Positions 1 to 44,282 of a DNA stretch of 64,000 bases are shown here, one piece after another; positions within the stretch are counted from its first letter, which is position 1, and every line of letters starts with the position of its first letter. The notes under the pieces were generated by a model. It made no database searches. It saw nothing but the letters and a program-made list of their open reading frames with translations, and was not told where the DNA came from. The stretch comes from Candidatus Omnitrophota bacterium (GTDB lineage: Bacteria; Omnitrophota; Gorgyraeia; 2-01-FULL-45-10), in NCBI GenBank assembly GCA_017993955.1, contig JAGOLR010000002.1, positions 26 through 64,025 of the forward strand, read 5' to 3'. Position numbers and translations under genes: made by a program.

Positions 1-3000
1 TGTATTAAAGATACGTCGATAGGCTGACCCTGTACAAAGTTAAGGTCGGGCCAGAAGAGGCCATCGGCTTCATCGACAGCAAAAGGCAATGCCGCGCGGG
101 CCTCTTTTTCGGTCAATTTTACATTACCGCCCCTCATGGATCTGGCTATCTCTTCTTCGTTAAACTTACCGGCCAGATTGTCCGAGTCGCCCTCGAAGAA
201 TACAAAATCTTTTCCTTGTTGTAATCCGTTCGCTTTAAATTCCGCGGGCGTTGTGATATAGCCGTTCAATTCCTTTACCGCGGTGACCATGAGAAGGTGT
301 CCCAAGGCCAGCATATCGTCGAGCTCTTCTCTTGTATACCCTTCGCCTGAAATGGTAAAGCTCGAGCCTGTGTTGGAGAACCTGACTAGGGTCATGGCCC
401 CGGTCTTTGCATTAGTTATATGAACACCACTTACAAGTTTTACCTTAGGATCTCCGAAATTTATGACGAATTTATGCTGTGTATCCGGGAACCATTTAGC
501 CGCGATCTCTTTCATCTTGTCGGCGATCGCATACTTATATTTGTCCTGCTCGGTAGGCAGCGACGGTTTTCTCTCATCTACCACCGTATCGCGCAGGTTA
601 TATTCAGACTGTATCCACGCAAGCTGCTCGGCCGGGTTCCTGCCGTTCCACTGGTGTTTCATGCAACCGAGCAGATACACCAAGAATAGCGCCGCGTTGT
701 CACCGCCCTGATAACCGGGATAGTTATGCTCGGCCGGAGCGCCCCAGTTTGCGTTGGTAAGCGGATTGGTAAATGCATGGCAAGTATTCTCCACTGCAAG
801 GTCTGCCGGAAGAGACGCCATACCCCTCATGAAGAAAGGATATCCGGCCTCGTGAGGCACTACCTTTACCGGCAGTCCTCTGTCGTTAAGAGCGCGCTCC
901 AGGTCCTTCGCGGCTACGCCGGTCCTCATGTCGGATATTACTGTAGGAACTCCCAGGCCCTTCTCTTTGTAGCTTACGGCCATATTCTCTATTGCGAGAA
1001 GAAGCAACTGCGAGCCGGTCATCGATATGACCTGCCCTTGCGGCGTTATCGCCACTATAGAACCCCTGTCACCGTCCGGATCGACGGCAAGCCAGGTACG
1101 ATTGGTATCCTGGGCCCTCTGCTTTATCCTGGCTATCGCCGCGGACTTATGCTCATTCGGGTCTATGATATGTTTTGTATCGTAATTCGCGTCGAGCTTT
1201 TCGTTATCTACGACGAGGTCTGTTACTCCGAGCCCTTTCAGTATGGTCACAAGGTTCTGGCCTATGGGGCTACCGCCCATGTCGACTCCGAGCTTAAGAC
1301 CCGACAATAACTCGTCCTCTTTTGTATTAACCGGCGCGGCCGTCGCTCTCAACATATCGGCGGCTACCTGTATATTATTCTTTGTGGTATCGCTTACCGT
1401 GATGACATTCATGCCTTTCGAGTCGGTCTTCTTTATAGGAGCGAAATCTTTGGAAGTTATGGAGTCATACAGGGTGCCGGATTCTACGCCCTCACAGTGG
1501 CGGACTTCGGGCCCGCAGTAAACTTCAGCGCCTATACCAAGCTTGGAACCGAGGAAATCCTCAGGCCTGTGGCTCATGGTAAAGTAGACCCAGTTGCCGC
1601 CCTCTCCGTTAAGCGCTTCGTAGAGTTGGCCGTAGTTACGTATATCGCCGCCGTTCATGACTCCCCAATAATAGATCCCGCCGCCGTTATCGAATATACC
1701 GGTCCTGAGTATGGCGTCTGCGAAAATCTGAGCGGCCTCGAAATGTTTCTGATACGCGTCAACCGCTATATGCAGGATGATGCCATCCTGTTTTCCGGTC
1801 TTCTCCTGAAGCTTCTTGGCGAATGCTAAAGCAAAAGCGACCGTAAATGCCGGGTTCTCCCTCCAGAACTTGGAGCGAATATCGTAGTACATGATACCGG
1901 CTTCTATTATCTCCTGGACAGATTTATCGGAGAGGCTATTTATAAAATCGCGCAGTTCATCTGTATAGTCACCGTTATTTTTAAAGAACCTTCCGTCCGG
2001 AGTGAAAATCCTGCCGTGTATGTCGGGAAGATTTACGCCCGCAACGATACCATCCTGTACCCTGGAAAGGGCGGTGGCCCTTGCGATATTAAGATCATCG
2101 CCGGTCTTGCCGGGGAATGAAAGCCTGGGAGCGCCGGTTCTTACGGCACCTACATCTATATCGGCAGACTTTGCGGCAAGCTCTTTCTCGATAGCTTCGC
2201 CGAGGGTTTTGTAACCCTTTCTCTCATGATAAACCTCGATTACCGTATCCGGATTTTCTGTCTGGCCAACTAACCCCAATGCTTTTAACCGATCAACTGC
2301 TACTGCCGCAGCAGGCTTAAAATAATCTTCCGAAAGATCGCTGAGCATAACTGCATCAGGGGCCAGTATAACGAAGATGGAAGCAAGAAGATTGACTGTA
2401 CTTGCGGCTTCTTTATCTTTTCTAAAATCTACCTCTCTGCCGCCAACGACACCGTAAAAATTGCCTCTATTCACAAGTAAGTTCGCCGCCGTAGGGAACT
2501 CTTGCAGGTTAACATTCTGGTAAATAGTGGAAGCCTGCTGTAAAGCTGATCTACCATATGCCAGATAGCCAAGGGCATCGGCCGGGATTATCTCTGCTGC
2601 AGGTGTAGCCAGAAGAAACCAGCCGACATCCTGTCTAAGCGCGTCTTCGTTAAAGCCCGGAGGCAATGCACCCAGCTTACCTTTGATAAAATCCTCTTTC
2701 AAGAAAACGGTCGTCATACCCCTGATAAGATCGACCCGCGAACTTATATATACGTAAGGATATTTCTTGTCTTTCAAGGCCGGATTATCTTTGAACGTTT
2801 CGGCAATGGGATTATCGTCGACTTGAGCCACTGTCATGGCCATAATAAGATCTGCAAGGGTCTTGATCCCGTACTTTTCCGGTAATCCCTTAAGCTGCCT
2901 TGTGGTCTCGTTATCGGCAAATGCGTCTTTTGTATCGGCCATTTCACTGACAGAGACCTTATCCAGGTTATTATCTAAAGCAAGAAGCGCAAGCCGCAGC

Positions 3001-5603
3001 TCTTTAGTTGGAGCGATAGCCTCTACCTCGATTTCGCTGGCTTCAGGATTTTCTATATGCGCTATCTCGTGCCTGAACGCCTGCGCTAACAGCGCGGTAC
3101 CGTTATATAAAGATAATATACTTGCCAGGTCGATCTCATCTATATATACCTGATTACGGGTAACGCCATAATGGAATATGACGTCTTTTAGGCCTGCGGG
3201 CAGCTTCTCCTTCAAACCGCGGACCACGACGAATTTATAAGGCGATTGGCCGAATATATTGTTCAACTCGGCCAGTTGGGAACTCACCCTCGCTTTGTCA
3301 CCAAGACGCGAGATGTCTTCATCCGTAGCCGCGTTTATCGTCCTCTCGCCAAAAAGTTTAGCCGTCCAGGCTGTATCGAGAATAGAGTAAGCCATCCCGT
3401 CATCTATGCTCTCCCCTATGGCGCCGTTTAAAGTACCTGCTATGCGGACCATAGACTGCGCGCCCACCCTGTAATACCTGAGCCCGTGGCCGTCCGCGGT
3501 AACTCCGGTAACGCCTTTACCGCGTATAGCGCCAACCTCATCACTACCGGATGCTGTCTGCGGAGCAATGCCGGCGTAGCGAGCTTCTACCCTTCTATAT
3601 ATCTTTTCGAAAGCGGTATTTAACTGCGCGGTACTCCATATATCTTCCAGTTTTTTCCTTATAGTAGTCTTTTCCGCATAAGAGAGAGTAGTAGCTCCGT
3701 TGGCCTCTTCCTGTAATTTAACCAGGGCATTTGTCATACCCAGAAGATAGGCCTCTTTGACGGTATTCTGGTCACGCACCAGTTGGTGGGTATCCGCCAT
3801 AGCAAAGACCTTCTGCATCCACCTCGAGACCATTATCATGGCATAAGAGACTTTTACCTGTTCTGTTCTGTCGATGATGGAGTCTATTAGGCTATCGAGC
3901 GAACCTCCGTCTATACCCTTAATGGCGCCGAAAGCGGCCCTTATCTCTTTTTCACTGAGTGGCACAAGCTCTGAGAGTATTATAGGAGCGAGCATCTCCG
4001 CCCGGGCAGCGCCGGTATCCGTAAGAAGGTCCTCGAATGAAGTGCGCTGGTTGGTGAGTATCTGTATATAAGGACTGGGTTCGTTCTTGGTTATGTTCGG
4101 GCAGATCACTATATAGGACATGCCCTCTTTTTCCAGCAATTTGGATATACCTTCGGAATGGAAGCCGCCGGTAACTAGTACGGCTATCCTCTCGCTATCC
4201 TTATTCATCGCGTTGATGGTATTGTCAACAAGGGCCTTGTCGCGCTTTATGGCTATAGCGTAGAAATCCTCGAGTTTTGGTATGCTTTTTGATACAGCCT
4301 CTGTAGGCGGCTCGAGTTCGTAATTGAAACCGAATTGTATCGATTTATTCTTGATGAAATCGGCAAAGACCTCCGGGGCGAATTCGCTCTTATGGGCCTT
4401 GTAATAGTCGTAATCGCCGTTCAATAATTTTATGTTGATGAGTCCTATTATCGTATCTACGTGGCGGGATAGCTTCTCAAGAGTGCGCTGGTCGTCGTTC
4501 TGGAAGAGCTTCTCCTTTATGGCGGTTTCGACAAGCTTTATCTCGTGGAAGAGTTTCTCGTTCTCTATCCTGGAGTAGACTGCGTTATATATCATGTAGT
4601 TAAAGAGGTTCGGGTAGTCTTTGGCAAGGTCCACTTCGTTCTGCTGGGTAAGGGCTTTTAAGTAAGTGTAAAATTCTACGGATGATATCTTGCCGACTTT
4701 GAAGGCAAGAGACTGGGTGACTAGCTTGGCTATCTGCTCTTTGGACATCTTTTTGGTAAGGACATCTATGACATTGGAGCGTTCTTTGTCAACGACATTG
4801 AAATTTATCTTCTTCTCGTAAATAAGAACGCTTACCAGCTTGAAGAAATTATCGTAAGCCCTGGCGTTTATCTTGTACTTCTCGCACATATCCTGGAGAT
4901 ACCGGATGTAGTCATTGAACTGGATCTTTTTGGACTCATAATCATCCATCTTGGAGTCCATGGTCTTCAAACCTTCGTTATATATATAACCTTTCAGCCG
5001 GTTCAATATGCTCTTAACCTGGTTATAATACTTCTCGGTCTCGTCTTTCAGTGGGTAGCTTGACGTGAAGGCATTAAGGTTCTGTATATAATATTCCCTG
5101 GTCTCCGCTCCGAAAAGCTTTATGGGGTAATCAGTAGTAATGGAGAGGAATTCCGGTCCGGTTATCTCGCCCTTCTTCATGAAATAGGTAGCGACTTCTT
5201 TGCGGATCTCTTCGTCCGGGAAGGCCTTGAACCAGGAGGTGTCTACTATGCCGTCGGCTCCTTCAACCGATACCAGCTTCAGCCCGTCGTTCTTCACAAA
5301 GCTCTCTACCATCTTGGCAATATTGGTCTGGGCTTCGTAGTTGCAGTGCGCATCCTGTATATGGATGACGAGCTTATCCTGGGAGCCTTTGTATTTGGAT
5401 TTCAATATCCCGGTGTCTTTAGGTATGACTATCTTTTCGGGGTCGGTGACTACTTCCGTCTTTGCCGCGGGTTCTGCAGCGGCAGTCTTGATGTCGGTCG
5501 GGGCTGCAAAAGCTATCGAGGATGCCATAAATGCTTGCGCTATAAAAACGGATACAGTCTTAATAAAGATAGTCCTGCCTGTGGTCATTCTTGCGAATAA
5601 CAT
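1..5603 (-). CDS. giant secreted multidomain protein, 3'-truncated by window edge (at least 1867 codons in window): signal peptide, conserved N-terminal module, HExxH module, alpha-D-phosphohexomutase (PGM/PMM-like) domain
   Basis: ATG at 5603-5601 with GGGAGG Shine-Dalgarno 6 nt upstream (5609-5614). The ORF track reports no complete minus-strand ORF in 1-5951, so this frame stays open to position 3. N-terminus MLFARMTTGRTIFIKTVSVFIAQAFMASSIAFA/AP is signal-peptide-like with an AxA site. Motifs read directly in frame: FTMSHRP (1560-1580), LAVDPDGDR (1065-1091), LLAQAFRHEIAHIE (3051-3092). Confidence 0.85.
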   Translation of the reverse strand, partial: MLFARMTTGRTIFIKTVSVFIAQAFMASSIAFAAPTDIKTAAAEPAAKTEVVTDPEKIVIPKDTGILKSKYKGSQDKLVIHIQDAHCNYEAQTNIAKMVESFVKNDGLKLVSVEGADGIVDTSWFKAFPDEEIRKEVATYFMKKGEITGPEFLSITTDYPIKLFGAETREYYIQNLNAFTSSYPLKDETEKYYNQVKSILNRLKGYIYNEGLKTMDSKMDDYESKKIQFNDYIRYLQDMCEKYKINARAYDNFFKLVSVLIYEKKINFNVVDKERSNVIDVLTKKMSKEQIAKLVTQSLAFKVGKISSVEFYTYLKALTQQNEVDLAKDYPNLFNYMIYNAVYSRIENEKLFHEIKLVETAIKEKLFQNDDQRTLEKLSRHVDTIIGLINIKLLNGDYDYYKAHKSEFAPEVFADFIKNKSIQFGFNYELEPPTEAVSKSIPKLEDFYAIAIKRDKALVDNTINAMNKDSERIAVLVTGGFHSEGISKLLEKEGMSYIVICPNITKNEPSPYIQILTNQRTSFEDLLTDTGAARAEMLAPIILSELVPLSEKEIRAAFGAIKGIDGGSLDSLIDSIIDRTEQVKVSYAMIMVSRWMQKVFAMADTHQLVRDQNTVKEAYLLGMTNALVKLQEEANGATTLSYAEKTTIRKKLEDIWSTAQLNTAFEKIYRRVEARYAGIAPQTASGSDEVGAIRGKGVTGVTADGHGLRYYRVGAQSMVRIAGTLNGAIGESIDDGMAYSILDTAWTAKLFGERTINAATDEDISRLGDKARVSSQLAELNNIFGQSPYKFVVVRGLKEKLPAGLKDVIFHYGVTRNQVYIDEIDLASILSLYNGTALLAQAFRHEIAHIENPEASEIEVEAIAPTKELRLALLALDNNLDKVSVSEMADTKDAFADNETTRQLKGLPEKYGIKTLADLIMAMTVAQVDDNPIAETFKDNPALKDKKYPYVYISSRVDLIRGMTTVFLKEDFIKGKLGALPPGFNEDALRQDVGWFLLATPAAEIIPADALGYLAYGRSALQQASTIYQNVNLQEFPTAANLLVNRGNFYGVVGGREVDFRKDKEAASTVNLLASIFVILAPDAVMLSDLSEDYFKPAAAVAVDRLKALGLVGQTENPDTVIEVYHERKGYKTLGEAIEKELAAKSADIDVGAVRTGAPRLSFPGKTGDDLNIARATALSRVQDGIVAGVNLPDIHGRIFTPDGRFFKNNGDYTDELRDFINSLSDKSVQEIIEAGIMYYDIRSKFWRENPAFTVAFALAFAKKLQEKTGKQDGIILHIAVDAYQKHFEAAQIFADAILRTGIFDNGGGIYYWGVMNGGDIRNYGQLYEALNGEGGNWVYFTMSHRPEDFLGSKLGIGAEVYCGPEVRHCEGVESGTLYDSITSKDFAPIKKTDSKGMNVITVSDTTKNNIQVAADMLRATAAPVNTKEDELLSGLKLGVDMGGSPIGQNLVTILKGLGVTDLVVDNEKLDANYDTKHIIDPNEHKSAAIARIKQRAQDTNRTWLAVDPDGDRGSIVAITPQGQVISMTGSQLLLLAIENMAVSYKEKGLGVPTVISDMRTGVAAKDLERALNDRGLPVKVVPHEAGYPFFMRGMASLPADLAVENTCHAFTNPLTNANWGAPAEHNYPGYQGGDNAALFLVYLLGCMKHQWNGRNPAEQLAWIQSEYNLRDTVVDERKPSLPTEQDKYKYAIADKMKEIAAKWFPDTQHKFVINFGDPKVKLVSGVHITNAKTGAMTLVRFSNTGSSFTISGEGYTREELDDMLALGHLLMVTAVKELNGYITTPAEFKANGLQQGKDFVFFEGDSDNLAGKFNEEEIARSMRGGNVKLTEKEARAALPFAVDEADGLFWPDLNFVQGQPIDVSLI
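350..1940 (-). other. alpha-D-phosphohexomutase (phosphoglucomutase/phosphomannomutase-like) domain within gene 1
   Basis: Catalytic-serine loop TxSHxP (FTMSHRP), Mg-binding loop DxDGDR (AVDPDGDR), a downstream ENTCHAFT loop (compare GEESGH) and RFSNTGSS (compare RPSGTEP phosphate-binding loop), all in the canonical order. Domain boundaries are approximate. Confidence 0.55.
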
Positions 5604-5684
5604 ATTTTTCCTCCCGGGATTTTTTGGAAATCTTTCCATATGCATTCTTTATTGGATAACTTTTTTATCGTTTTATATATATTA

Positions 5685-5712
5685 AGTTTATCATTTTTAA
5701 TAGTAATGTCAA
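5685..5712 (-). promoter_or_regulatory. putative sigma70-like promoter for gene 1 (-35 TTGACA at 5707-5712, 16-nt spacer, -10 TAAACT at 5685-5690, minus-strand reading)
   Basis: Hexamers read on the minus strand. They are embedded in a block conserved with the region upstream of gene 2 (GTCAATC..TGACTTTTTTA). Lies about 80 nt upstream of the ATG. Confidence 0.3.
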
Positions 5713-5778
5713 TCCATATAAACTGACTTTTTTAACACTCAACAAATATGGTGTTATTGCTAGGAGCTAGCACTTTTT

Positions 5779-5893
5779 CGTCAGGCGACGAAGCAATCTC
5801 TCTTTCGTCATTGCGAGGAATTATCGCTAAACTCATACGACGAAGCAATCTCTTTTTTAGATTGCTTCGGGCACTTCGTGCCCTCGCAATGAC
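5779..5893. repeat. nested-palindromic intergenic repeat element, copy 1 (a half-unit plus a full unit)
   Basis: cgtcaggcgacgaagcaatctctc + cgtcattgcgagga ... cgacgaagcaatct-cttttttt-agattgcttcg-ggcacttcgtgcc-ctcgcaatgac. Outer arms GTCATTGCGAGG/CCTCGCAATGAC; inner arms GACGAAGCAATCT/AGATTGCTTCG; central palindrome GGCAC-TTC-GTGCC. Confidence 0.85.
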
Positions 5894-5951
5894 AAACGAA
5901 AAATCCGGCTTTACAATAACAGGTTAAAATAGCACCCGGTACAAGAAGATG

Positions 5952-8900
5952 CTATGCCGCCCTAAGTATAAGTTTCACAAATTCTCTGTGCATCCTTATC
6001 TCTTCTTCGTAGTTTTTCGGGAGATTTTCCGGGAGATATTTAAATATATTCTTCTCTTCGTCTTTGGTAAGGTATGGAATGTTCCTCCAATAACCGCTCT
6101 GCGCGAAGAGTTCCAGTAATACTTCATAGCTATTCGTATCTACCGGACCGGCGAGCTCCAATTTTACCGCGTCGATCGACACTTCTTTCAATATCTCTTC
6201 GTAATCTTCTATCTCGCCTTCCCGCGCCCGGATACCGATATGCTTTATCCCTGATGCGCGCAATCCCGAAACTACCCCGTGCAGCTCTTCTTTTGTAACA
6301 GCGGTCACGTAAGGAGTAAGCCCCAGGGTATCTATATATCTTGCCACCTTGGCCTTATCGCTAGCCAGTTCCGGATCGGTGATAAGGACTATCTCTTTTA
6401 CCGGGTCATCATCTTTTGAAGAGACACCCTGCCTCTTCTGCCTTCCGGCTATCTTATCTCGCAGGGCATACATCATCTCGGCATCGAGGACTCCCTGCGT
6501 TGTGATAGAGACCGCTTTAGTCCTATCGCCGATTATGAAAGAATTAAGAAAAGCGCTTTCCGTATGGGCAAATTCTCTTGTATTGGCTATAGTCCTGGCA
6601 GCGATGGCCGGCTTAAGAGCTTCCAAGGAAGCCCTTACCGATTCTATATCCGCTGGAGAGACCGCAGGTATGGTCGCCGCGAGAGACTTTACTATATCTA
6701 CCATGCCCTCGACTGTCATGTATCTGAGACTTGAAGGATCCATGCTGTAAATATAGCCTTCATCGGGTGGATTGACATCTCTCTCTGTAGACATAAGATA
6801 TTCGCGCAAAGCCGGTATCGCCAACCCATACGGCAGATCGAGAACTACGCCGCGTCTTGCCCTCATCTTATATGCAAGATCCGAAAGCTTCGGATCTTCC
6901 GGGCTGTTGGTCTCTATCTCTACCAGGCTCACCCTTAATAACGGGAATGTGCTGTCTATGAAATTCCTTATGCCGTCCATGCCTTCGCCCGCTATGGTCC
7001 CGGAGGCTATACCGATTACTATATCGGCCCGCCCCGGCATCTTTCTCTGTATCTCTTCAAGGGCTTTTTGGGCCATCTCTCTTGACCGGGGTAGTTGAGC
7101 CTCTTCTTCTATATGCTCCAGGAGTCTATCTGCCAATCCGGATAATGTATATCTGGTATCATGGAAAGTTAATTCCCGCCCAAGAGACAGAGGATTCAAT
7201 GCGACATCTTGCAGAAAAGGGATAAAATATTTGGCTAGGTTTATTCTCTCGGCATCTACAATCTGATTGGATATATAGGACAAGGTAAGACCGGATATGG
7301 AGTTTTGCTCGCCGTTATACCGGACTTTTGTAGAGGAGGCTTCTTTGTCGTACACTATCTCCTTTAACATCTCGATAGAGCCCTGGGGGGAAAGATCCAT
7401 ATGCTGATACGTGGCAAATAATGCATAGACATTTACCGGCAATCTCGAAGTCTTGGATTGCATTATCCGGCCGGGCCTTGCGTGCAGTATTATATCCTTT
7501 ATAACTGGTAGCGAATACTTGTGAGGTATGCGATGTGGGTCTGAGAGGGCTGTTATTATATCTGCCGTGCGGGAGCGGCCGGTCTTTGGGTTAAAGGCAA
7601 GATCGTTGTATTCATTCATCACCTCCGCCCTCAGACTCTCGACCTTATGTGAATAATACAAATTCCTGAATATTACGAAGCTCGCCCATACAAAAAAGGC
7701 TACGCTTAAAAATGCCAGGATAGCTTCCGGCGCTATGATAAGCTTATCTGCGCCCCCGTGCAAAGGCATGATAAATATCCCGTGCGAAAGAGCGTTCTTT
7801 ATGGCCTTGCGCCAGGTCGGAAGACTCCCGGCTGCCTCCTCGAGTATCATCTCTGCTTTACGCCCCTCCACGTCTCTAGCCAACCTTATCTGGGCGCCGA
7901 CCCCGTCTGAGATCATAGAAAGGCCGTCATTTATCTCCCCCGACATAACCTCATCGGCGCATTCTCTCAGGGTAGTATATCTCAAATATTCTTTAAGCTC
8001 GCCGACCTTGTGGCTTTTTACCACCATGCTGACTTCGACCAATTTAAAGGTATCAAGTAGTGATATTATATAGAACAGGAACTTCCTGGAGTTTGCCCAT
8101 TCGCCGCATATACATACCTCTGCGCGGCTTGCCGGCGGCGCATGCCGGTTATAATCGTTAACACCATTAAAGGCATTGCGCACATTTCTCACAAATGCCG
8201 GGAAGAGGACATGGTATATCTTTTCAAGCCGCTCGTCGTCTCTTTCGTAGGCATCAGAAAAGCTCCTCTTTGACAGGTCGTTTGTGCCGATACTTATATA
8301 AGAGAATAGTCCTTCGCGCAATATCTCAGGTACGGCAGCGCACGCCGCGGGTGTTTCTATCATAGCCCCGAAACGGACCTTGTCGAGGTCGCTCTTGGCC
8401 AATCCTTCATCGACAAGTTCGGACTTGATTTTTGAGACCAGGTCTTTTAACATAGATGCCTGATCTTCATTCTCCACCATCGGGATAGTTATTCTTATAT
8501 TCTTTTTTTTGCTGGAGGCCGAGGCGCGCAAAAGAGCTCGTAGCTGGATCCTTATTATCTCCCGGCCCTTGATGTCCTCAAAATAGAACGGCACGCCGTA
8601 CAGAACCGGCCTTTCAGAAGTGACGTAACTGCGTCTTCCGCCTTCACCATCCACGGTGAACCCTACGGCGTCTGCTATGGAGACCATGTCTTTAAGCTTG
8701 TCCTTCTCCATGTCGAGAGTCCTGAAGGTGACCGGGCCCTCCACCGAATCTGCGGCCTTTAGGGCCTGAGCGTATATCTCGTCCTCGGTGGGTTCCACCT
8801 TCCGCATGTACATATTCTCCATCCTGATAAGCCCCACGCCTGCAGCCCCATAACCTTTAACCAGCGCAGCATCGGGCTCAATACGGGGTATGTCGGAGAG

Positions 8901-11900
8901 AAACGTTATCTTTTCGCCATCCAGCGTCTTGGACTCCTCAGAGCTGTGTTCGCGGTATATCTCTTTTAATATCTCCCTCTCCCTGCGCCGCTCTTCATAA
9001 TAGCGCATGACCGCAGGGTTAGATTGAGGATTGCGCACAATCCTGCGCCTGGACGCGTCTATAACTATAAGATCGCCCGTCTCGAGGTTTCGCAGATCCG
9101 GCACCCCCGGTATGACCATGATAGGCTCGCGCATATCCTCCATCAGCATGTCCTCTAAAGTTATCACCCAATGCGATCTTGAGTTGCCGGTCTCGGTGGC
9201 GATGGCGGCTATATCGGGATTCTTGTCGACGAATTTGAAGGCGTGTATCTGGTCCATGGCATCGGTAACATATATGGTGGTAGCCTCGTCTTCCTGATCT
9301 ATAGATGAAACCATACGGCCATCCATAGCTATGGCAAATAGCGCTGCAAACTTATTCAAGGTCCCGGCAAGAGAAGGGTCCGCCGCGGAATACTCTTGGG
9401 CGAACCGATAGACCAGCTCGCTCGCATTCGGCCCTCCGTAAGCTAGCGACAATACGATCTTTTCCGGAAGGCCGTCGATAAAGTCCTTTATAGAATCTCT
9501 TTCGTTCCTTCCCAGATACACCAACGCATCGGAAAAAGCTTCCTCGGCCTGACTTATTTCTATATCCATCACGCCATCGAGCTCAGGAAGCGGTCGGTCT
9601 GCATTATGCATGTGACGCACCAATTCCATCAAGGCCATGTAGGCATCCACGAGCCCCTCATAGACTTTCAACTTTACAGACTTCTCCGCCTCCGATATCC
9701 TCTCTTTCTTTATATCCGCTATATTTCCCATGAATGTCTGTACAATAGGCCACATCTCTCTGGCCTTATCAAGGAGCTTCACGTAGGAGCGGCGCTTTTC
9801 GCTTCTCACAAAACCCCTGACTTCGTCGAGCAATATCGGATCCGAAAGAAAGCTAATGGTATTTAAAGCAACCGACTTGGCCTCTTCGGTATTAGCCTCA
9901 TCTACAAGCCGCGCGGCGTTTATCTTCATGGCCTGTATCGTCCTGTCCAAAACGGCTATCTCTCTTTCGACCCTGTCGTCGGTAAGCCCCGAAGCCGCGT
10001 CTTCTATGTCACGCAGACTCGCCAGAAGCCCTTCGATCTTTCCCGCATCTTTATTCTTGCGATTTTTCCGAAGCCTGTCCAGATAAGGCTTGATAGAGAT
10101 ATCGAACGTGAATATAAAATTTTTACCTCTCTCCTCTAACGCTTTGAACGCCTTTTCGGTCGATTCTCCCAATTCGCGCAGGGAATCGCCGCTTAGGCCC
10201 AGACCTGGTACTATATTATCGATAGCCCTCCTCATCCTTTCCGATTGCTCGGCGATTTTGGTCTTACGCTGGCGGATGGTGTCATGCTCGGTCCACATGT
10301 CCTCATCGGCCATCTTTGTGCAATCAAGAAAGGAGACGGAACGTTGGACGGTTAGGAATAGAACCTCGTCGCCCTTTACGGAAGGTATCTCTATCTCCTC
10401 GGGCGTAAGACTTTCGAGATGGGACGCAAGCCTGTCAAGCTCCGCGAGCATAGACGGATCTGAATTTAATAATTCTTCGGAATCTATGTACCTATTCTTA
10501 TCCGGATAAAGGCTGCGGCAGAGGTCCTTCAACATCTCCGTCTGGCTCTCGTTTAGAGCGACGCCTCTGGCCTTATCGTCTTCCGGACCTAAAGATGATA
10601 TATTCTTTAGCTCAAAGACTGTTATACCCATCCCACCCGCGGCATACGACCAATTCGATATCGGATGCACCAATACCCCTTCATCGGCCATCCGGTTTAA
10701 AACCTCTGTAGTATCGTGTATAAGACGCGAGGACTCTTTACCGAATATCATCACTTCCGTGTGGTCAGCGTCCGGCGGGTTATACACCGTAAATATATGA
10801 TCGTTTTCTAAGGCCTCCACCATAAATTGTCTCGACATGCGGTAAGCCAGGCCGCATTCGCGCACTAATCTTTTCGGCGCCGCCGCCAATATATGTTCGC
10901 CCGGCATGCTCTTTATAAAATCCCCTACAAAGTTGCGCGGCACTTTCCTGAATAGGCGCCTCAACTCTGTGGTCATGATATCGCGCCTTTGGTCGGCCAG
11001 CATCTGTTTGAAATCGCTCTGGACTATCGCTTCTCTTTGCCATATATCCTGTATTGGGATGGCCATGAGATTGTTCTGTATATCACTTCCGTCATAAAAA
11101 CGATTTACGAACCATTCGGCCGCGGCCTTTGCCTTATCCGGGGGAAGGCTTGCCAGGTGCCCCAGGACGGCCTTCTCGGACCTGGAATAATATCTGCCGG
11201 AATGGAACATCTCCCTGCCTTCCGCCTGGAGCGATCTTTTAGCTTCCGAGAAGAATCTGTCAATGCGAGATTGCAGTTCTTTATTGGCCAGGGTCTTGCG
11301 GTGCAGAGGCAAGTCCACCTCTAATATTATCCGCGCTTCTTCGGCCTTCAACTCTTCCCTTGTAAGAGCAGCGTTGGAATGGGCAAGCTCGTGAGCCAGC
11401 CTTTCCGCCAATATGTGCAGGACGACTTCGCGATGGTCATATTCGTGCTCAGACAAGGTCTCCACAAAGTCTCTGTCGAATACAATATAGACATTGCCGT
11501 TATCGTCTATGTACTTTACGCAGTTGGTCCCCAGATTATTTACTACTTCTATCTGGACAGGCTTATCGCGTAATAACGGTATAAAATTAGCAAGAAATGC
11601 GCGGATCCTTTGAACTATGCTTTTAGGAAGAAGAACCTCGGTGCCCTTAAGCAGACCGTAAAAAGCTGTTGGGACAGCTTGCTCTCTCTTATAGAAGATG
11701 CCGTTACTATAACTATAGTCCCCCTCATATCTTTTAATAAAATCTTCCTTGGATATCCTTCTCGGGCTGCCGATAGGAACGGCCATAGTAGCGGCTTTCG
11801 TCTGATAAGCCTCGATCGACGGCACATACGCCTTCTCTTCGTATTCTCTGATAAAGCGCTCCATTGTGAAATGGGCCATTACGTCGTATATCACATTCTT

Positions 11901-14900
11901 GGATCTGGAAGTCCACTTGTCCTTGTCGCCCGCGAACTCTTTCATTAGACCCAGAAGCGCGGAGTACATATTCTCCCTGGTCTGATCATCCCTTTCCTTT
12001 GTGTCGCCTATATCGCTCTCTTTAAATATAACTGCCGCTCCCGGCGCGCTCAACGGTTCGCCTCCTTCAAGCGCTTCTACCGCTCCTTCCGATTCCAGGA
12101 CCCAGCCGTCCGGAGTGGAAAGGCTAACCACGCCGTTCAAACCGGCCTTCATGCCGCTGGTACCGCTTGCCTCCAAAGGAGGTATGGGGTTATTGAGCCA
12201 TACCGAGGCTATCCTGGTAAGATCCCTTGCCACAGAGATATTATAATTCTCCACGAAGAATGCCGTACCGGGATAACGGGAGATGAATTCGTTTATCTGC
12301 CTTATGATAAGCTGGCCCCGATCATCGGCAGGATGGGCCTTCCCTGCGAATACCACCTGGACCTTTACGCCCAGACGTTTAGCCTCTTCCATAAGGGCGT
12401 CGAGTTTAGGCAATATGAGATCGGAACGTTTGTAAGGAGCTGCCCTGCGGGCTATCACCACCACGAATGCGTCTTTGTCGAGTTCTACGCCGCGCGATTC
12501 TTTCAAGTGTTCCACGGCGCGCTCCCTAGATCTGTCAAGGACCTGCCGCAATGCCTCGTTATCGATACTGCCCAAAAGCGTCTTAAGCTCAGCCTCTGAT
12601 AATTCTGACAGGCGTCTATCTTGCGGTATCGCTCCGTCGCGCTTTGTTCTCGTCAGGCTTTCGGCAAGGATACTTTGCAATTCCGGGGATTGCCAGAACC
12701 GCCTGTGAACAGCATTCGTTATATAATCTATCGTATCGTCCTTATAAAGCCTTCTAGAAACCTCACCGTGTTTTTCGCTTACCCCGTTGGCATAACGGGA
12801 AAGGTTCAGAGCTAGCTTCGACAGATTTACCATATACTTGCCGTAAACTTCGCTTTCATAACTGCTGATGCCGAGTATATCTTCTATATCCATGCCGTTC
12901 ATGCCGGAGTAATTTTCAAAGAACCGTCTGAACATGCCTATGTCAAACTCCTCGTTACCATCCGGTATTGGGGTGTGTGAAGTAAAGGCCATCCTCTCCT
13001 TTACCGCTTCACGGGCTGCAGTAAAGGTAATGCCGGCTTCCATCAATACTTTTCTTTCGACCTTGCCTTCCCTTATCTGAACGTTGAGATCTTCTAAACC
13101 CAAACCTATCTTGGCGGCTCGCGCCTCCAGCTCCTGTCGTATAAGTTCTATGCCGGAAAGCGCGCTGTGGCCTTCATTCATGTGAAGAACCGCTATCTTA
13201 TGCCCCATAGCCTGGAGAGCCCGCACACCTCCGACTCCCAATAACAACTCCTGCATAAAACGCCAGTAATCCAGGTCCTTAGGCAGTATATTGCCCATAT
13301 GGTCCCTGCCTCTTGCGTAAAGATTGTGCGTCAGCTTTCGGGCATTAGGCTCTGGATTCAATGACTGATCGTCGTTTTCCGGAATATCTGTATCGAGAAG
13401 ATAGAGATCGACTCTGCCTACCCTTATATGCCATATCTTGGCGTATATGAATTTGCCCGGAGTAGACTCGACTTTTATTACTATATCTTTTCCGTTTTTA
13501 TCCTTGGCAATGTCACCGTATTTTTCGAAAGGTATATCCCTGTAATACTGGACCTGGCTTCCTACGGGAAGATCCGCATATTGCCCGCTCAGATGGTCCT
13601 CTTCCGTAACTATATGCTGTTCAAAAAATCCCGTCCTGTAAGCAAGCCCCATCGCCACAAAAGTGTTTTTTGGGTATCTGTCGTTGGCGGCCCAGAGGGT
13701 ATCGCCGGAAAGTATGCCGAGACCGCCGCTATAGATATTGAGCCACTGGGAAAGGCCGTACTCTAGGCTGAAGTACGCTATGCGTTCGCTCTTACCCAAT
13801 CCGAGAGACCTCCTTACCATCTTCTGCCTTTCATCGCCGTCCATGTACTTGTAATATCTGGACATAAGGGCAAGATAAGTGTTTATCTTTATTTCGGCAG
13901 AATCCGCCAGGGCGGCATCGAGCTCTTTCTTGAATGCGGCAAGTTCCGGGTCCTCTATCACGGCTATGTTCTTTGCTATCCTGCGCAATCGCGCCAGCAT
14001 CTCTTCGGAGTTAGCCACGACATTGGAAGAACCTTTTATAACAGCCGCCGGTTCGGCTATACCTATACTATCGGCAGTGGCCCCTGTGACTCGCCTGAGA
14101 CCTCTCATAAATAATCCGTTTTCTTTTACGACTCTTTCGAGAGCGGATACGGCGGGCTGTATATCTATGGTCTTTCTGGAAGCGCAGGCGAGTACCAGGT
14201 CGATGTCTTTTCTGGTAATGGCCCCTTCGTGCATATCGCCTACTTCGTGGGAGAGCTCGTGAGTTATACCCGCGGAGAGTATGATAGCGAATAGCTCTTT
14301 AGGCATATTGGGGGCTACTTCTTCGAAGAGTATTCTATTTATTCCTATAAAATTATTTTTTATGTGGTCTTCAAAAATGGATTGGGATCTTTCCACGAGG
14401 GCTATAGAGATGGTGCGTCCTTCAAGGGCTCTAAGGTCATCCGGGCCTCTCGTCTTTATCGCCTCTTCTATAAGCTTCTCCAGATCTATCCTGTATTGGT
14501 CGGAACCCAAAATATCGAGGATCTCTTGGTCCACTTCCGCCTTGAAGCGAACCGGGACGTCTTTGTCTGTACGGCTAAAACCTATATCGAGCGTTCTCAT
14601 GCCTCGGGCTGTTTTTATATAATCTATAGCAGCGGCGATATCGCTGGAAGAGTAATATAGCTCGCCCTGATCGGCCTTTATGTAAAATCCGTTTTGGCAA
14701 TGGTATTTTCCGCCAATCTTTGCCTCGTCAATCAAAGCCTGGAAATGCGCCGTCTCCGGAGCGTACAAATTTGCCGGCTGATAAGGATTTACTTCTACCT
14801 TCATGCCGGCCATATTGATCGTCCCGGAAACAAGACGCGCAGTCTTGTTATCAGGATCAAGCCTCGAGAGCCTGTCCTCAAGCTCCTTCTTCTTGCCTTC

Positions 14901-17900
14901 TTTAGCGATAAAGAGCGCAAACCCTCCGCCTCCGGCGCCGCAAAGCTTGCCGCCTGCCGCCAGATCGCTTACACTCTGAAATATACCTTCTATATAGCTA
15001 TTACTTGCTTCGGGGTTTAATATCTTCCATTCTTTCCAGAATTCGCCGACAAGCCTGCCCAGCTTATCTATATCTCCCGACCTGATCGCTTCGGATACGG
15101 CATCGTCCATACCGACAAGCCTTTCGCGCGATTCGGATTCTACGCGGTTATGGGTAATGTAATCTATAACGATCTTCCGCAGAATATCGCCTGCGAAATG
15201 GCTCTTACCAACGTAGTACAGAACTACCCTTTCCTGGAGCTTTCTTACGAACTCATCCGACACCGCGATAGGCTCTACTACCGGATGAGGCGCTCCCGGC
15301 TTTGAGGACACAAGCTTGACTCCGCCGAATATCCCGCCCACGGGATCCTGCCACCCTCCGCCTATATTCAGAATGTGCTCAAGAAAGAGAGTCGCGTTCA
15401 AGACCTCGTCTTTTGATTTGTTCTGCCCCGATATCCTATAAAGGCCTTCGAGAACGCAAGCGTCGAGAATACTTGAGACGCCGAGGCCGCTCCCCCGGGG
15501 CACATTCACTTCCACTTCAAGCTCTATCCCGCCTCCGAGAGATTCAAGTATTTCCGAAAGCGGCCTGGTTTCCGACATATCTATAATACCGGAGACTATA
15601 AATGCCGCCTTAAAAAGCCGCAGGGGATCTTTTTTGTCCTCATAATCGAATATCTCCTGGACAGAATCGACGACGTGTTTTATATCCAGGTCTTTAGAGG
15701 TTATACTTATAACGCGTTCTTCCAACCTCCGCACCTTGACCTTTATGGGCGTTTCCCCGTCCAGGTCGAAAGCCATATTCACGGCCCTCCCGCCCCTGTC
15801 AAATGTTATGGCGAAAAGATCGGAAGCTCCTCCGTGAGATAGATCTATCCTGACAGGCGAGGAGACGATGACCTCTTTATCTTTAAGGTCTTCCGGTATC
15901 TTTAACGCCTCGCGCGAAATCCCGATATTGCGCTTAATGGCGCTCTTTATAGTATTTATGGCAAGGTCTGTGTAATTATTCTCTATCCTTGCCCCGACGC
16001 CAAACCAGCTATATCTGGAGTATATGTGGCCTATCAACAGATAGGCCCTTGCCTTTGTAATTACGCTCGGGAATTCGCCTATGCTCTGCTTCAACCTTTC
16101 GGCAAGAGCAAATAATCTCCTTCTATCGCTTTCGGCTTTTGCCAGAAGTTCCAGGTTCGACATAGGGCTACCGGTATATAGGGCCTGCATGACTTCACCT
16201 ATGAATTCATCGCTCTTGGCTCTGAATACTGCGCCAGATCCTATCCCCGGCATATAATAAGCCGCCGGTTCCCTGTAACCAGCGGCATGCGATACTTCGT
16301 GCCTTTCTATGAAGTAACGCGCAATCCGTCCGGAGAGAGAGTTGTGGGGTATATTATCGTAAACCCTCCGGTAGGCTTCCGGTTTAGCTGAAGGATCGTA
16401 TGTAACGTCGCTGGAATCTGATATGTTGTACCATAGATACTCTATTTTCTCCGACGTACCGTTATACCGGGCAATATCGCGCTCATTACCGTTTGGACCA
16501 AACGTACTTACATGCGAAGATGCGAAGGCCCGCTTTATTTCTAGGGCTGTTATAAAATGTATGGCTGTATAGGCAAGGCCTAATCCGGAGATAAAGCCAA
16601 ACAAGAGATGCCAGTATCCGGGAAGTTGGACGGCAAATGTTATAAGTCCTGATCCGGTCACAAAGGATTCTGCAATAACTAACCATTTTATTACGGATAT
16701 ATTTATCGGACTGGGTTGCTCCTCGCTTTCGGAAGACACAGACCCTGCCTGCAGGAAATCGAATTCATCCGGTCGAACCGCATCGGAAGAGCCGTCGGGA
16801 CGCCCCTCTTTTATTATAGATATAACACCCGGATCTCTTTTTGCAAGTAGCGCCTTCATGGCGCTAAGAGGCCTATCATCGAGACCTTTGCCACCAAAGA
16901 AAGTACCGAATAACTCTAAAGTCCTTGATATAGGCTGGTAGTCTATGTTCCTTAGGGCGAGTAGACGGCCTGCGTTATTACCGTTCTCGAATACGTCGCA
17001 TAATATCAATATGTCAAGAAGGAGCTTCATCTCCCCTGTAGACATGCCCGATGTAGCAGCTATACTATCAAGCGCGGCAAAACTTTTTGGATAGAAGAAG
17101 TGGTTGTCTATTATGAACTTCTCGGCAGGCGTAAGGCTTATTCCTAGCTTGGCAAGCCTGTCTACAGAGTATCTTTCGTGGCTCAATTCGCTTACCAGCT
17201 CTTCGGCTTTCCCCGGAGGAAGGGGCTTGCCGTCCAGTGCGTAGGCGGCGGCTACTAACCTGCCGGCGCTTATATAGTACTTTTCGAAATCCGGATCGGC
17301 CGGCAATAAATATCTTTCCAATTCTGGGCGGTTCGCCAAAAGGCTCTTCATGTCGGCTACCATCTCTTCTTTCGGCGTGTGTACACGTATACCATATTTT
17401 TCTATCATTGCAATATTACCTTTGACCGCTCCAGACGCAACTTCTTCCACGGTAGCGGCAAGTCCGCCCAGATCGTGTATTGCGGATACCCTTCCGATAA
17501 GATCTACAAGCTCTTCTCTTATTCCAAGTTCGCGCGCTACGGATACGGCAAGTCTGGCCACCCTCCGGTTGTGAGATTTGTTTATATTCTCACCTCCGGA
17601 TAACGGCGATGGAGAAAATAGCTCCAGAAGCGCTTCGATGGGATATTCGCTTATGTGCCTTAAGGCGCTCGACTTTTCGGCAGATGGAAGAGAATCCATA
17701 TCTACTATATGGGTCTTTGCCTTATCGAATCCGGGATAAGGGCCTAAAATGATCTCTATGACTTTTGAGTCACTCGGGAACTCTATGGAATGGCCGGCGA
17801 GATTCAATATCATATCGCCCGCTTCCAGAACGACATCCCTGACAAGGACTCCCTCTTTCGTGTAGACCTTGCATTTCACAAGCCCTTCCTGTACTACGAA

Positions 17901-22859: not shown

Positions 22860-22895
22860 TTATTCTGGCTTTTTGTTTTCCTATATAATGAATAA

Positions 22896-22923
22896 ATAAT
22901 ACACTATAAAAACTGTAAGTCAA
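22896..22923 (-). promoter_or_regulatory. putative sigma70-like promoter for gene 2 (-35 TTGACT at 22918-22923, -10 TATTAT at 22896-22901, minus-strand reading)
   Basis: Same conserved block as upstream of gene 1: gtcaatcttaaaaatatgacttttttat versus gtcaatccatataaactgacttttttaa. Confidence 0.3.
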
Positions 22924-22972
22924 TCTTAAAAATATGACTTTTTTATATCTTAATTCACACCTCGTCATTGCG

Positions 22973-23108
22973 AGGAGCCGGTGCGTTTTTCGCTCTGTGA
23001 TATCTACTTACGTCATTGCGAGGAGCCATCGTTTTTTCGTCAGGCGATATCCCCCCGTCATTGCGAGGAGGCTGACTATCTCGCGTTGGCCGACGAAGCA
23101 ATCTCTCT
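22973..23108. repeat. repeat element cluster, copy 2: three CGTCATTGCGAGGAG half-sites plus one CGACGAAGCAATCTCTC half-site, abutting the stop codon of gene 3
   Basis: cgtcattgcgaggag at 22973, 23021 and 23057; cgacgaagcaatctctc at 23090-23106, 3 nt before the TAA (23110-23112). Confidence 0.8.
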
Positions 23109-23109
23109 T

Positions 23110-42948: not shown

Positions 42949-43015
42949 TATAGACCCCTTGGTTTTGTTAAATCCAAATTACAAATTTCAAAATCCAAAT
43001 AAATGAAAATCTTCT

Positions 43016-43104
43016 CTTCGTCATTGCGAGGAGCTATTGCTAGACTCAGGCGACGAAGCAATCTATTTTTTAGATTGCTTCGGCCCTTCGGGCCTCGCAA
43101 TGAC
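43016..43104. repeat. nested-palindromic repeat element, copy 3 (full unit)
   Basis: cgtcattgcgaggag-ctattgctagactcagg-cgacgaagcaatct-attttttt-agattgcttcg-gcccttcgggc-ctcgcaatgac. Confidence 0.85.
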
Positions 43105-43134
43105 AAATAAGAAATCGTATTACTCAATAACAAT

Positions 43135-43428: not shown

Positions 43429-43444
43429 TTTAATTCTTTCTTTT

Positions 43445-43489
43445 AGATTGCTTCGTCCTTCTCACTTCGCTCGAAGTCCTCGCAATGAC
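43445..43489. repeat. partial repeat element, copy 4 (right half), 17 nt upstream of the GIY-YIG start
   Basis: agattgcttcg-tccttctcacttcgctcgaagtc-ctcgcaatgac; the central cttcgctcgaag is itself palindromic. Confidence 0.75.
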
Positions 43490-43613: not shown

Positions 43614-43760
43614 GAGTAGATACAATTTTTGCTACTCTGACGTTTTAGCTTACACCTATGCATATTAGTTTCATTTTTTATCAAATTCTACTATATAATT
43701 TATCACAGCTACTGCTTTAAATCAATGCAAGTCCTTCTGTCTTTTTTCTCCCTAACCTGT

Positions 43761-44270: not shown

Positions 44271-44282
44271 AAATAACGATGA

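What the first reader, a model, noticed from the sequence alone, without database searches (positions are those of the whole stretch)
5049..5712. Genes 1 and 2 are paralogous at their N-termini and share a conserved upstream promoter block
Protein: gene 1 IHIQDAHCNYEAQ...KLVSVEGADGIVDTSWFKAFPD...EFLSITTDYPIKLFG versus gene 2 INIQDAHAYLGAQ...KVVAVEGTSGYIDTSLLKTFPD...EFFSITSEKPIALYG, and further downstream YIQILTN versus YIAILTN. DNA: gtcaatccatataaactgacttttttaac (5707-5739) versus gtcaatcttaaaaatatgacttttttata (22920-22948), each 100-150 nt upstream of the start, contains a TTGAC(A/T) -35 on the coding strand. This indicates that the giant genes arose by duplication and divergence with a common N-terminal targeting module and co-regulated promoters. 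The module (QDAH...VEG..G..DTS...FPD) is unassigned.
Basis: seen in the sequence. Interest (0 to 1): 0.55.

Follow-up and report, generated by a model that had tools for sequence, protein, structure and literature searches.

The report
Shared enzyme head on giant genes
Two neighbouring giant genes of an Omnitrophota bacterium begin with the same undescribed ~530-residue exported module, probably a TIKI/erythromycin-esterase-type hydrolase. Thousands of large Omnitrophota proteins carry this module, and it comes with a promoter signature conserved across the phylum.

Summary
Gene 1 (<1..5603, minus strand) and gene 2 (5952..22859, minus strand) align over 542 residues at their N-termini (29% identity, E 6e-70) and nowhere else. 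Both promoters carry AAAGTCA-N-ATTGAC, which occurs only at these two places in the window.

The module is a large Omnitrophota family (more than 10,000 clusters at 50% identity) with no Pfam or NCBIfam model. It is always N-terminal on 1-6 kaa multi-enzyme proteins, or it stands alone. It consists of a conserved cleavable signal peptide and an alpha/beta core split by a ~270-residue helical insert.

Two independent AlphaFold models hit only EreC, Bcr135 and HopBA1 among alpha/beta folds. D84-x-H86, E114, R454 and GGxH482 are invariant in about 330 sequences, with TIKI-like spacing. I read it as an exported TIKI/Ere-type hydrolase head. Fold-level E-values and profile matches are weak.

Genes 1 and 2 are ancient paralogues in the head only, so whole-gene duplication is not supported.

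The promoter block belongs to a phylum-wide signature: GTTAAG-N-ATAAAAWAGTTAG, 10-11 nt, TTGACW, N16-17, TATAMT, then a second box in the leader. I found it at most module genes and at none of about 27 other intergenic gaps. What binds the boxes is unknown.

The parts
4014..5603 (-). Gene 1 N-terminal module (residues 1-530): signal peptide 1-33 (5505-5603), alpha/beta N-lobe 55-168 (5100-5441), helical insert 169-434 (4302-5099), alpha/beta C-lobe 435-520 (4044-4301)
   Evidence: BLASTP; family profile 683 bits; AlphaFold model with mean pLDDT 86.5 and its secondary structure
5346..5354 (-). Codons for D84-A85-H86 of gene 1 (first His motif). The other invariant residues are E114 (5262-5264), R454 (4242-4244) and H482 (4158-4160)
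   Evidence: D 335/336, H 336/336, E 337/337, R 329/329 and H 328/328 across the family; codons read
21222..22859 (-). Gene 2 N-terminal module (residues 1-546), a paralogue of the gene 1 module
   Evidence: second AlphaFold model with pLDDT 88.7 and pTM 0.83
5685..5712 (-). Gene 1 core promoter: TTGACA (5707-5712), 16 nt, TG-n-TAAACT (5685-5690)
   Evidence: same position and form in 56 of 66 homologous loci
5723..5743 (-). Gene 1 upstream box GTTGAGTGTTAAAAAAGTCAG, ending 10 nt before the -35 hexamer.
5656..5666 (-). Gene 1 leader box AAAAAAGTTAT, about 19 nt after the -10 hexamer
22896..22923 (-). Gene 2 core promoter: TTGACT (22918-22923), 16 nt, TATTAT (22896-22901)
22934..22954 (-). Gene 2 upstream box ATTAAGATATAAAAAAGTCAT
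22865..22874 (-). Gene 2 leader box AAAAAGCCAG, directly before the ATG
43697..43756 (-). Third, weaker copy of the same arrangement: GTTAGG..AAAAAAGACAG, 11 nt, TTGATT, 17 nt, TAAATT, with leader box AAAAAATGAA at 43670-43679. It lies about 750 nt upstream of gene 3, which lacks the module
   Evidence: Read by eye. The promoter scan did not report it (8 of 12 matches). Tentative

Best explanation
Genes 1 and 2 each begin with one copy of an undescribed Omnitrophota module of about 530 residues.

Shown: the module is a family of more than 10,000 sequence clusters. It is always at the extreme N-terminus of large multi-enzyme proteins, or it stands alone. It starts with an unusually conserved Sec-type signal peptide that ends in (S/A)-F-A. 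It then folds, by prediction, into an alpha/beta core interrupted by a ~270-residue helical insert. It keeps D-x-H, E, E, R..N and GGxH invariant.

Inferred: the core belongs to the TIKI / TraB-PrgY-GumN / ChaN / erythromycin-esterase superfamily. It is an active hydrolase (peptidase or esterase) that works outside the cytoplasmic membrane, as the first part of the protein to be exported. The His-Glu pair would activate water, as proposed for the Ere and TIKI enzymes. I put this at about 0.65.

More speculative (about 0.2-0.25): its substrate is the giant exported proteins themselves, meaning their conserved leaders or inter-domain linkers. [quoted passage not shown]

The two copies are ancient paralogues attached to unrelated bodies, which indicates domain shuffling.

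Both genes have their own sigma-70-type promoter embedded in a phylum-wide signature: a ~21-nt box 10-11 nt upstream of the -35 hexamer, and a similar box about 22 nt after the -10 hexamer. This most likely marks a common regulatory input. The binding factor is unknown.
For: Paralogy: (E 6e-70).

Family size and position: one search finds 10,157 clusters at E<=1e-3 and 7,046 at E<=1e-30, and the module sits at residues ~10-530 of proteins of 1-5.5 kaa. Searches find 224 genomic loci, nearly all Omnitrophota by record title; of the best 80, 73 are fused to a long ORF and 5 stand alone.

No curated family.

Fold: two independent models. Foldseek against the PDB returns EreC 6xcs/6xcq (probability 0.92 and 0.80 with the g2 model, 0.41 with the g1 model), Bcr135 3b55/2rad and HopBA1 5t09 (probability 0.60, rmsd 5.8 A over 121 columns). 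These are essentially the only recurrent alpha/beta hits; nearly all other hits are helical bundles or long helical assemblies. The only clan that recurs among the weak Pfam hits to the core is Tiki: PF04187 (best E 0.003) on residues 438-484, and PF01963 (E 0.18).

Residues: D84, H86, E114, R454 and H482 are invariant in 328-337 sequences. The spacings are H-to-E 28 and R-to-H 28. Bcr135 has H85/E113, and RRSP has E3900-x-H3902, E3930, R4001 and H4030 (PMC6254334).

Export: positively charged n-region, hydrophobic core and an AxA-type site in both the fused and the stand-alone forms.

Promoter. Of 52 composite-motif matches in 624 kb, 47 lie directly upstream of module genes. The leader box is present in 35 of 42 loci, against 12.5% expected by chance. 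None of about 27 other intergenic gaps carries the signature.

Against: The first acidic residue is Asp where RRSP has Glu.

There is no evidence at all on the substrate. Two of the five stand-alone genes I looked at lie in ordinary neighbourhoods, which weakens a strict link to the processing of giant proteins.

The promoter signature is not exclusive. Full-signature promoters precede a module-less protein (L158) and a small MEDS-like protein (L125).

Transcription starts are unmapped.

Confidence: 0.65

Rival explanations
1. The head is a non-catalytic targeting or anchoring module: a signal peptide followed by a structural domain that tethers or scaffolds the giant protein at the membrane.
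For: The position is always N-terminal and a conserved signal peptide is present. The large helical insert could be a scaffold. Catalytically dead TIKI-fold domains exist, for example PMT C1/C2 (PMC6254334).
Against: D-x-H, E, E, R and GGxH are invariant across about 330 sequences that otherwise share only 25-30% identity. That pattern is the mark of an active site rather than a scaffold. Stand-alone copies occur in ordinary neighbourhoods where there is nothing to anchor.
Confidence: 0.15
2. Genes 1 and 2 are products of a duplication of a whole giant gene followed by divergence.
For: The genes are adjacent, in tandem and on the same strand, and they share the head and the promoter signature.
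Against: No similarity exists beyond residue ~545 at E<=1e-3, and the domain contents differ. The heads are 29% identical, whereas g1 has relatives at 60-84% identity in other genomes and g2 belongs to another subfamily. The same head sits on many different bodies and also stands alone. Only 1867 residues of g1 are in the window, so its far C-terminus could not be compared.
Confidence: 0.07
3. The shared upstream block is only what any strong sigma-70 promoter in an AT-rich genome looks like (an A-tract UP element plus a -35 hexamer). It says nothing about common regulation.
For: The A-tract lies where a distal UP subsite would be (my own knowledge of UP elements). The pairwise similarity of the two window blocks is modest (p ~0.007). 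Two signature promoters precede other genes.
Against: The conserved part extends beyond an A-tract (GTTAAG ... AGTTAG) at fixed spacing, and it is repeated in the leader. No other intergenic gap or predicted promoter in about 730 kb of Omnitrophota DNA carries it.
Confidence: 0.12
4. The core is a different hydrolase fold with a D-x-H motif, for example a calcineurin-type metallophosphoesterase.
For: A D-x-H motif follows the first strand, and several invariant acidic and His residues could bind metal.
Against: No Pfam Metallophos hit to the module. No such structure appears among the Foldseek hits of either model. The GNHE and GHxH motifs are absent.
Confidence: 0.04

Closest known systems
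TIKI / TraB-PrgY-GumN / ChaN / erythromycin esterase superfamily (Pfam PF01963, PF04187; structures EreC 6xcs, Bcr135 3b55, HopBA1 5t09, RRSP)
   Same: Parallel-sheet alpha/beta core. A His follows the first strand, a Glu lies 28 residues later after the next strand, and a conserved Arg in the helix precedes the last G-x-x-H strand. A helical region is inserted between the two halves. Many members are extracytoplasmic or membrane-tethered.
   Different: No significant sequence or profile match. The insert is far larger (~270 residues). Asp replaces the first Glu. The module is restricted to Omnitrophota. It is fused to the N-terminus of multi-kiloresidue enzyme arrays.
N-terminal C39 and S8 peptidase domains of Omnitrophota giant proteins (West-Roberts et al. 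2023, bioRxiv 10.1101/2023.11.21.568195)
   Same: A putative hydrolase domain placed next to the signal peptide at the start of a giant protein. The authors suggested that such domains process the giant protein.
   Different: Unrelated fold and sequence. That paper describes most N-terminal regions as lacking identifiable domains and does not describe this module.
'Multi-enzyme metabolic cluster' class of Omnitrophota long proteins, sugar-metabolism module (Nielsen and Lui 2026, bioRxiv 10.64898/2026.06.07.730766)
   Same: Genes 1-3 have that content: starch synthase, GT1, PGM, kinases, HEAT/TPR repeats, with a signal peptide and a few to many TM helices.
   Different: That catalogue covers proteins of 10 kaa or more. 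It reports no shared N-terminal domain and no promoter.
Operator pairs flanking a promoter, and ops/nut-type leader elements that load processivity factors (my own knowledge)
   Same: Two similar boxes lie about 72 bp apart around the core promoter, one of them in the transcribed leader of very long genes.
   Different: No binding factor is known. There is no sequence resemblance to ops. Nothing was tested.

Membership tests
TIKI/Ere/ChaN superfamily | Alpha/beta fold with a parallel beta-sheet core flanked by helices, structurally similar to solved members | tested here: inconclusive
TIKI/Ere/ChaN superfamily | First catalytic His directly after the first core strand (GxxH / ExH) | tested here: met
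   D84-A-H86 follows strand 78-84. H is present in 336 of 336 sequences.
TIKI/Ere/ChaN superfamily | Catalytic Glu about 28 residues after that His, at the end of the next strand | tested here: met
   E114 follows strand 110-113 and is present in 337 of 337 sequences. The spacing is 28, as in Bcr135 H85/E113 and RRSP H3902/E3930.
TIKI/Ere/ChaN superfamily | Conserved basic residue near the active site, followed by a second G-x-x-H after a strand | tested here: met
   R454 (329/329) lies in helix 435-468. G479-G480-F-H482 (328/328) follows strand 473-479. The R-to-H spacing is 28, against 29 in RRSP.
TIKI/Ere/ChaN superfamily | Significant sequence or profile similarity to a family of the clan | tested here: not met
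   PF04187 gives a best E of 0.003 at 15 bits, below its cut-off of 27.7, in 3-4 members only. PF01963 gives 0.18. hhalign against the YbaP profile gives probability 1.9%. PDB profile searches found nothing.
TIKI/Ere/ChaN superfamily | Hydrolase activity dependent on the His/Glu residues | not testable with these tools
   Needs biochemistry.
Sec-type cleavable signal peptide | Positively charged n-region, hydrophobic h-region, small residues at -3 and -1 | tested here: met
   The consensus is K/R (91%) ... F (89%) ... N-(I/V)-(A/S)-F-A (A 90%). The stand-alone members show classical AxA sites. No dedicated predictor was run.
Sigma-70-type promoter | TTGACA and TATAAT hexamers 16-18 nt apart upstream of the gene | tested here: met
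   10 of 12 matches for both genes. 56 of 66 homologous loci score at least 9.5 of 12 at the same place. The transcription start was not mapped.
Whole-gene paralogues (duplicated giant genes) | Collinear similarity along the gene bodies | tested here: not met
   The only alignment is g1 12-527 / g2 10-542. The domain contents differ.

The most novel reading that the evidence does not exclude
The module is a dedicated maturation peptidase of the Omnitrophota giant exported proteins. It would remove their unusually conserved leader or cut the polyprotein between enzyme units, acting in cis when fused and in trans when stand-alone. Its genes would form a regulon controlled through the paired 21-nt boxes, or the boxes would load a processivity factor needed to transcribe genes of 15-250 kb. 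This would be a new branch of TIKI-type proteases coupled to a phylum-specific control element for giant genes.
Probability: 0.15. Interest if true: 0.8.

Novelty: new variant of a known kind. Interest (0 to 1): 0.6.

Why it matters
How Omnitrophota make, export and use proteins of thousands to more than 100,000 residues is an open question. Published surveys describe the N-terminal regions of these proteins as largely unannotated.

This analysis gives one of the commonest N-terminal heads a boundary, a structural model, a candidate catalytic site and a candidate superfamily. The head covers thousands of sequence clusters.

The head is shared by enzyme arrays with different content and also exists alone. 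It is therefore a tractable ~500-residue target for expression, activity tests and antibodies. The giant proteins themselves are not tractable in this way.

The conserved promoter and leader signature gives a concrete sequence for finding the regulator, or for defining a regulon, in the roughly 180 complete genomes now available.

Tried and rejected
- **Family and structure databases.** Pfam, NCBIfam and PDB sequence searches with single sequences, the full profile and a core-only profile gave no significant family.
- **hhalign against TraB.** I compared the core profile with E. coli YbaP and with a 12-sequence YbaP alignment. Neither comparison was significant, but the alignment was of low diversity (67-82% identity), so the test is weak.
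- **Module in genes 3 and 4.** Absent by profile search.
- **Fission test.** The 2792-aa gene that follows the stand-alone module in L001 has no BLASTP similarity to g1-g4.
- **Structured leader or riboswitch.** Rfam gave 0 hits. Leader folding energies have median z -0.52, and only 17.5% fall below -2. Rejected as a general feature.
- **Leader box as a Shine-Dalgarno site or a conserved upstream ORF.** The box is usually 40-115 nt from the ATG, and a separate AAGGAG follows it. The short ORFs after the box are not conserved (by eye).
- **Metagenome-wide scan for the box plus the -35 hexamer.** The pattern was too unspecific.
- **First specificity control.** It had only 4-8 other intergenic gaps, because the flanks are mostly giant genes. 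I repeated it on five loci with 10-kb flanks.
Full report
**Layout.** The window carries four very long ORFs in tandem on the minus strand. Gene 1 starts at ATG 5603, behind GGGAGG, and runs off the window start, so 1867 residues are seen. Gene 2 is 5952..22859 (5635 aa), gene 3 is 23110..42948 (6612 aa) and gene 4 is 44283..63974 (6563 aa). The closest database protein (97% identity) and almost all other relatives are from Candidatus Omnitrophota MAGs. The bodies are arrays of enzymes. Gene 1 has a phosphoglucomutase domain. Gene 2 has starch synthase GT5 plus GT1, HD, GHMP kinase, glycogen phosphorylase and a PEP-utilising domain. Gene 3 has HEAT/TPR repeats, an LMW phosphatase, GH2, ribulose-phosphate epimerase, CofD and FBPase. 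This matches the published 'multi-enzyme metabolic' class of Omnitrophota long proteins.

**Check of the observation.** BLASTP between the four proteins gives one strong hit: g1 12-527 against g2 10-542, 29% identity, E 6e-70. Nothing else links g1 and g2. A family profile scores g1 683 bits and g2 563 bits and finds nothing in genes 3 and 4. The DNA blocks lie at 5708-5736 and 22919-22947. They match at 21 of 29 positions, and the local alignment is reached by 14 of 2000 shuffles. The pattern AAAGTCA-N8-14-ATTGAC occurs only at these two sites in 64 kb, where none is expected. Both blocks end in a -35 hexamer of a sigma-70-type promoter with 10 of 12 matches. The corrections are small coordinate shifts and the distance of the g2 block from its ATG, which is 60-88 nt and not 100-150 nt.

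**What the module is: distribution.** A word-indexed search found at least 126 relatives. Many are complete ~520-560-aa proteins on long contigs. An exhaustive profile search of 1.84 billion representatives found 10,157 clusters at E<=1e-3 and 7,046 at E<=1e-30. Most of the best 150 are proteins of 1,000-5,500 residues with the module at residues ~10-530. In one genome per species, 224 loci encode it. Of the best 80, 73 continue into an ORF that runs more than 1000 residues beyond the module, and 5 are stand-alone. The bodies differ from protein to protein. Of five stand-alone genes, three lie next to large multi-enzyme genes: 20 nt before a 2792-aa gene, 43 nt after a 14,181-aa gene, and 44 nt before a 2284-aa TIM/FBPase/GAPDH protein. 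The other two lie in ordinary neighbourhoods. Pfam and NCBIfam have no model for the module. The two papers on Omnitrophota giant genes do not describe it. One of them states that N-terminal regions generally lack identifiable domains apart from C39 or S8 peptidase domains.

**What the module is: structure.** AlphaFold models built from family alignments are confident. The g1 model (residues 1-560) has mean pLDDT 86.5. The g2 model (residues 60-552) has pLDDT 88.7 and pTM 0.83. Both show the same parts: an N-terminal hydrophobic helix, a disordered linker, and an alpha/beta domain whose strands lie at 65-71, 78-84, 110-113, 117-119 and 162-166 and again at 473-479 and 496-502. A helical insert of about 270 residues separates the two halves, and a disordered linker follows residue ~520. 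That is where the stand-alone proteins end. Foldseek against the PDB gives no significant E-value, because the helical insert attracts helical bundles. In both models, however, essentially the only recurrent alpha/beta hits are members of the TIKI/erythromycin-esterase superfamily:
- EreC 6xcs and 6xcq: probability 0.92 and 0.80 with the g2 model, 0.41 with the g1 model.
- Bcr135 3b55 and 2rad.
- HopBA1 5t09: probability 0.60, rmsd 5.8 A over 121 columns.

The weak Pfam hits to the core point the same way. PF04187 (ChaN, Tiki superfamily) has a best E of 0.003 on residues 438-484, and PF01963 (TraB/PrgY/GumN) has 0.18.

**Conserved residues.** In 337 aligned family members that are otherwise as low as 25-30% identical, the following are conserved:

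| Residue | Conservation |
|---|---|
| D84 | 335/336 |
| H86 | 336/336 |
| Q92 | 336/336 |
| E114 | 337/337 |
| E167 | 335/337 |
| R454 | 329/329 |
| N461 | 318/329 |
| G479-G480-x-H482 | 328/328 |

These residues sit at the C-terminal ends of the core strands. Their spacing (H86 to E114 = 28, R454 to H482 = 28) matches the catalytic set described for the superfamily. Bcr135 has H85/E113. RRSP has E3900-x-H3902, E3930, R4001 and H4030, the '2His/2Glu' set plus a conserved basic residue (PMC6254334).

**Export.** The family's N-terminus is a Sec-type signal peptide of unusual conservation: K/R 91%, S 66%, F 89%, N 57%, F 61% and A 90% at g1 positions 15, 18, 25, 29, 32 and 33, ending in (A/S)-F-A. 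Stand-alone members have classical AxA sites. The module is therefore probably the first part to reach the periplasm. Gene 2 has few further hydrophobic segments (near 2085 and 5046), whereas genes 3 and 4 are polytopic. A related leader (K..S..L...F...DI.WA) heads the module-less gene 3, both large genes after the stand-alone module in L001, and L158.

**Evolution.** The g1 head has relatives at 60-84% identity in many other MAGs, and 116 of 333 compared sequences are at least 50% identical to it. The g2 head is at most 46% identical to anything retrieved, 54% to a g2-like metagenome fragment, and 29% to g1. The two heads are ancient paralogues. Their bodies are unrelated at E<=1e-3. The head also occurs alone and on many other bodies. 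A modular head joined to different enzyme arrays explains this better than duplication of a whole giant gene. Only the first 1867 residues of gene 1 could be compared.

**The promoter.** I aligned the upstream regions of 66 homologous loci, the two window genes included. Fifty-six have TTGAC(A/T), 16-18 nt, TATA(A/C)T at a similar distance from the start. Immediately upstream, at fixed spacing, is a conserved box: GTTAAG, 3-4 nt, ATAAAA(A/T)AGTTAG, then 10-11 nt to the -35 hexamer. A second, similar box (GTAAA, 5-7 nt, AAAAAGTAAGAT) lies in the leader. It starts a median 22 nt (mostly 15-28) after the -10 hexamer, in 35 of 42 loci, against 12.5% expected by chance. Both window genes have both boxes. 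A composite pattern (box core plus spacer plus TTGAC) matches 52 times in 624 kb on both strands. Of these, 47 are directly upstream of module genes and 5 are inside coding sequence. In five loci with 10-kb flanks, the signature precedes the two stand-alone module genes that have their own promoter, and it precedes none of about 19 other intergenic gaps. Eight further gaps also lack it. It is not exclusive, because full-signature promoters in metagenomes precede a module-less protein with the related leader (L158) and a small MEDS-like protein (L125). A third, weaker copy of the whole arrangement lies at 43697-43756, about 750 nt upstream of gene 3 (read by eye; not reported by the scan). The two box cores are about 72 bp apart, roughly seven helical turns. 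That would suit a regulator that binds both sides of the core promoter. Other possibilities are an UP-type element plus a separate leader element, or a loading site for a processivity factor on very long genes. Leaders are not generally structured and match no Rfam family. So shared regulation has comparative support but is not shown.

**Mechanism, with steps marked.**
- Shown: paralogous heads, the extent of the family, N-terminal position, the invariant residue set, the signal-peptide pattern and the conserved promoter signature.
- Inferred: TIKI/Ere-type fold, hydrolytic activity through the His-Glu pair, and action outside the cytoplasmic membrane.
- Speculative: that the substrate is the giant proteins' own leaders or linkers, by analogy with the C39 and S8 domains at other giants' N-termini and with the action of TIKI and PrgY on N-terminal or signal-derived peptides (the latter from my own knowledge). 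An esterase acting on carbohydrate is equally open, given the sugar-metabolic bodies and the polysaccharide context of GumN and Bcr135.

**Verdict.** The finding points to an undescribed, very large, phylum-restricted branch of a known hydrolase superfamily. That branch serves as a standard N-terminal head of large exported enzyme arrays and is tied to a conserved promoter and leader signature whose binding factor is unknown.

Noticed in passing
window 5781-5904, 22963-23110, 43001-43110, 43435-43510, 43761-43861, 44142-44273: Every space between a giant gene's stop and the next promoter is filled with GC-rich palindromic repeat units. The units are built from CGTCATTGCGAGG / CCTCGCAATGACG and GACGAAGCAATCT / AGATTGCTTCGTC, with copies up to 97% identical. 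They look like miniature mobile or REP-like elements.
   Followed up: partly
window 43135-43425 (-): A 96-aa GIY-YIG nuclease gene (Pfam E 1.4e-16) sits among those repeats, between genes 4 and 3.
   Followed up: partly
window 43545-43760 (-): A third copy of the box / -35 / -10 / leader-box arrangement is followed by a long-loop hairpin with a T-run (gccagac...gtctggcggttttgttt). This could be a short transcript, or an attenuated leader far upstream of gene 3. Neither the promoter nor the hairpin passed the simple scans, and Rfam gave no hit.
   Followed up: partly
window 42849-42948 (gene 3 N-terminus), 22760-22859 (gene 2 N-terminus); L001 11559 and 20016; L158: Giant proteins with and without the module share an unusually conserved signal-peptide pattern: K-(I/V)-(I/V)-S-(I/V)-x-L-(I/V)-x-x-F-x-x-x-(D/Q)-(I/T)-x-(W/Y)-A. 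This hints at a dedicated sorting or processing step.
   Followed up: partly
window 5952-22859 (-): Gene 2 strings glycogen synthase (GT5+GT1), an HD domain, a GHMP kinase, glycogen phosphorylase and a PEP-utilising domain behind a signal peptide. Only two further hydrophobic segments follow. Taken at face value, nucleotide-sugar and PEP-dependent enzymes would lie outside the cytoplasm.
   Followed up: no
window 63974 (gene 4 start): The listed GTG start of gene 4 has no signal peptide, and the first hydrophobic helix is at residue 232. The true start, or the upstream context, lies at or beyond the window edge. Gene 4 has almost no Pfam matches; the only hit is a weak one to NAGPA.
   Followed up: no
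L207 9319-9567: A called 82-aa ORF just upstream of a stand-alone module gene contains the full promoter signature, so the call is probably spurious.
   Followed up: no
L083 (JAJCYG010000042.1), P0100, and loci titled 'uncultured Planctomycetia': A few module genes sit in MAGs labelled Actinomycetes, Patescibacteria or Planctomycetia. These are probably binning or labelling errors rather than occurrences outside Omnitrophota. I did not check.
   Followed up: no
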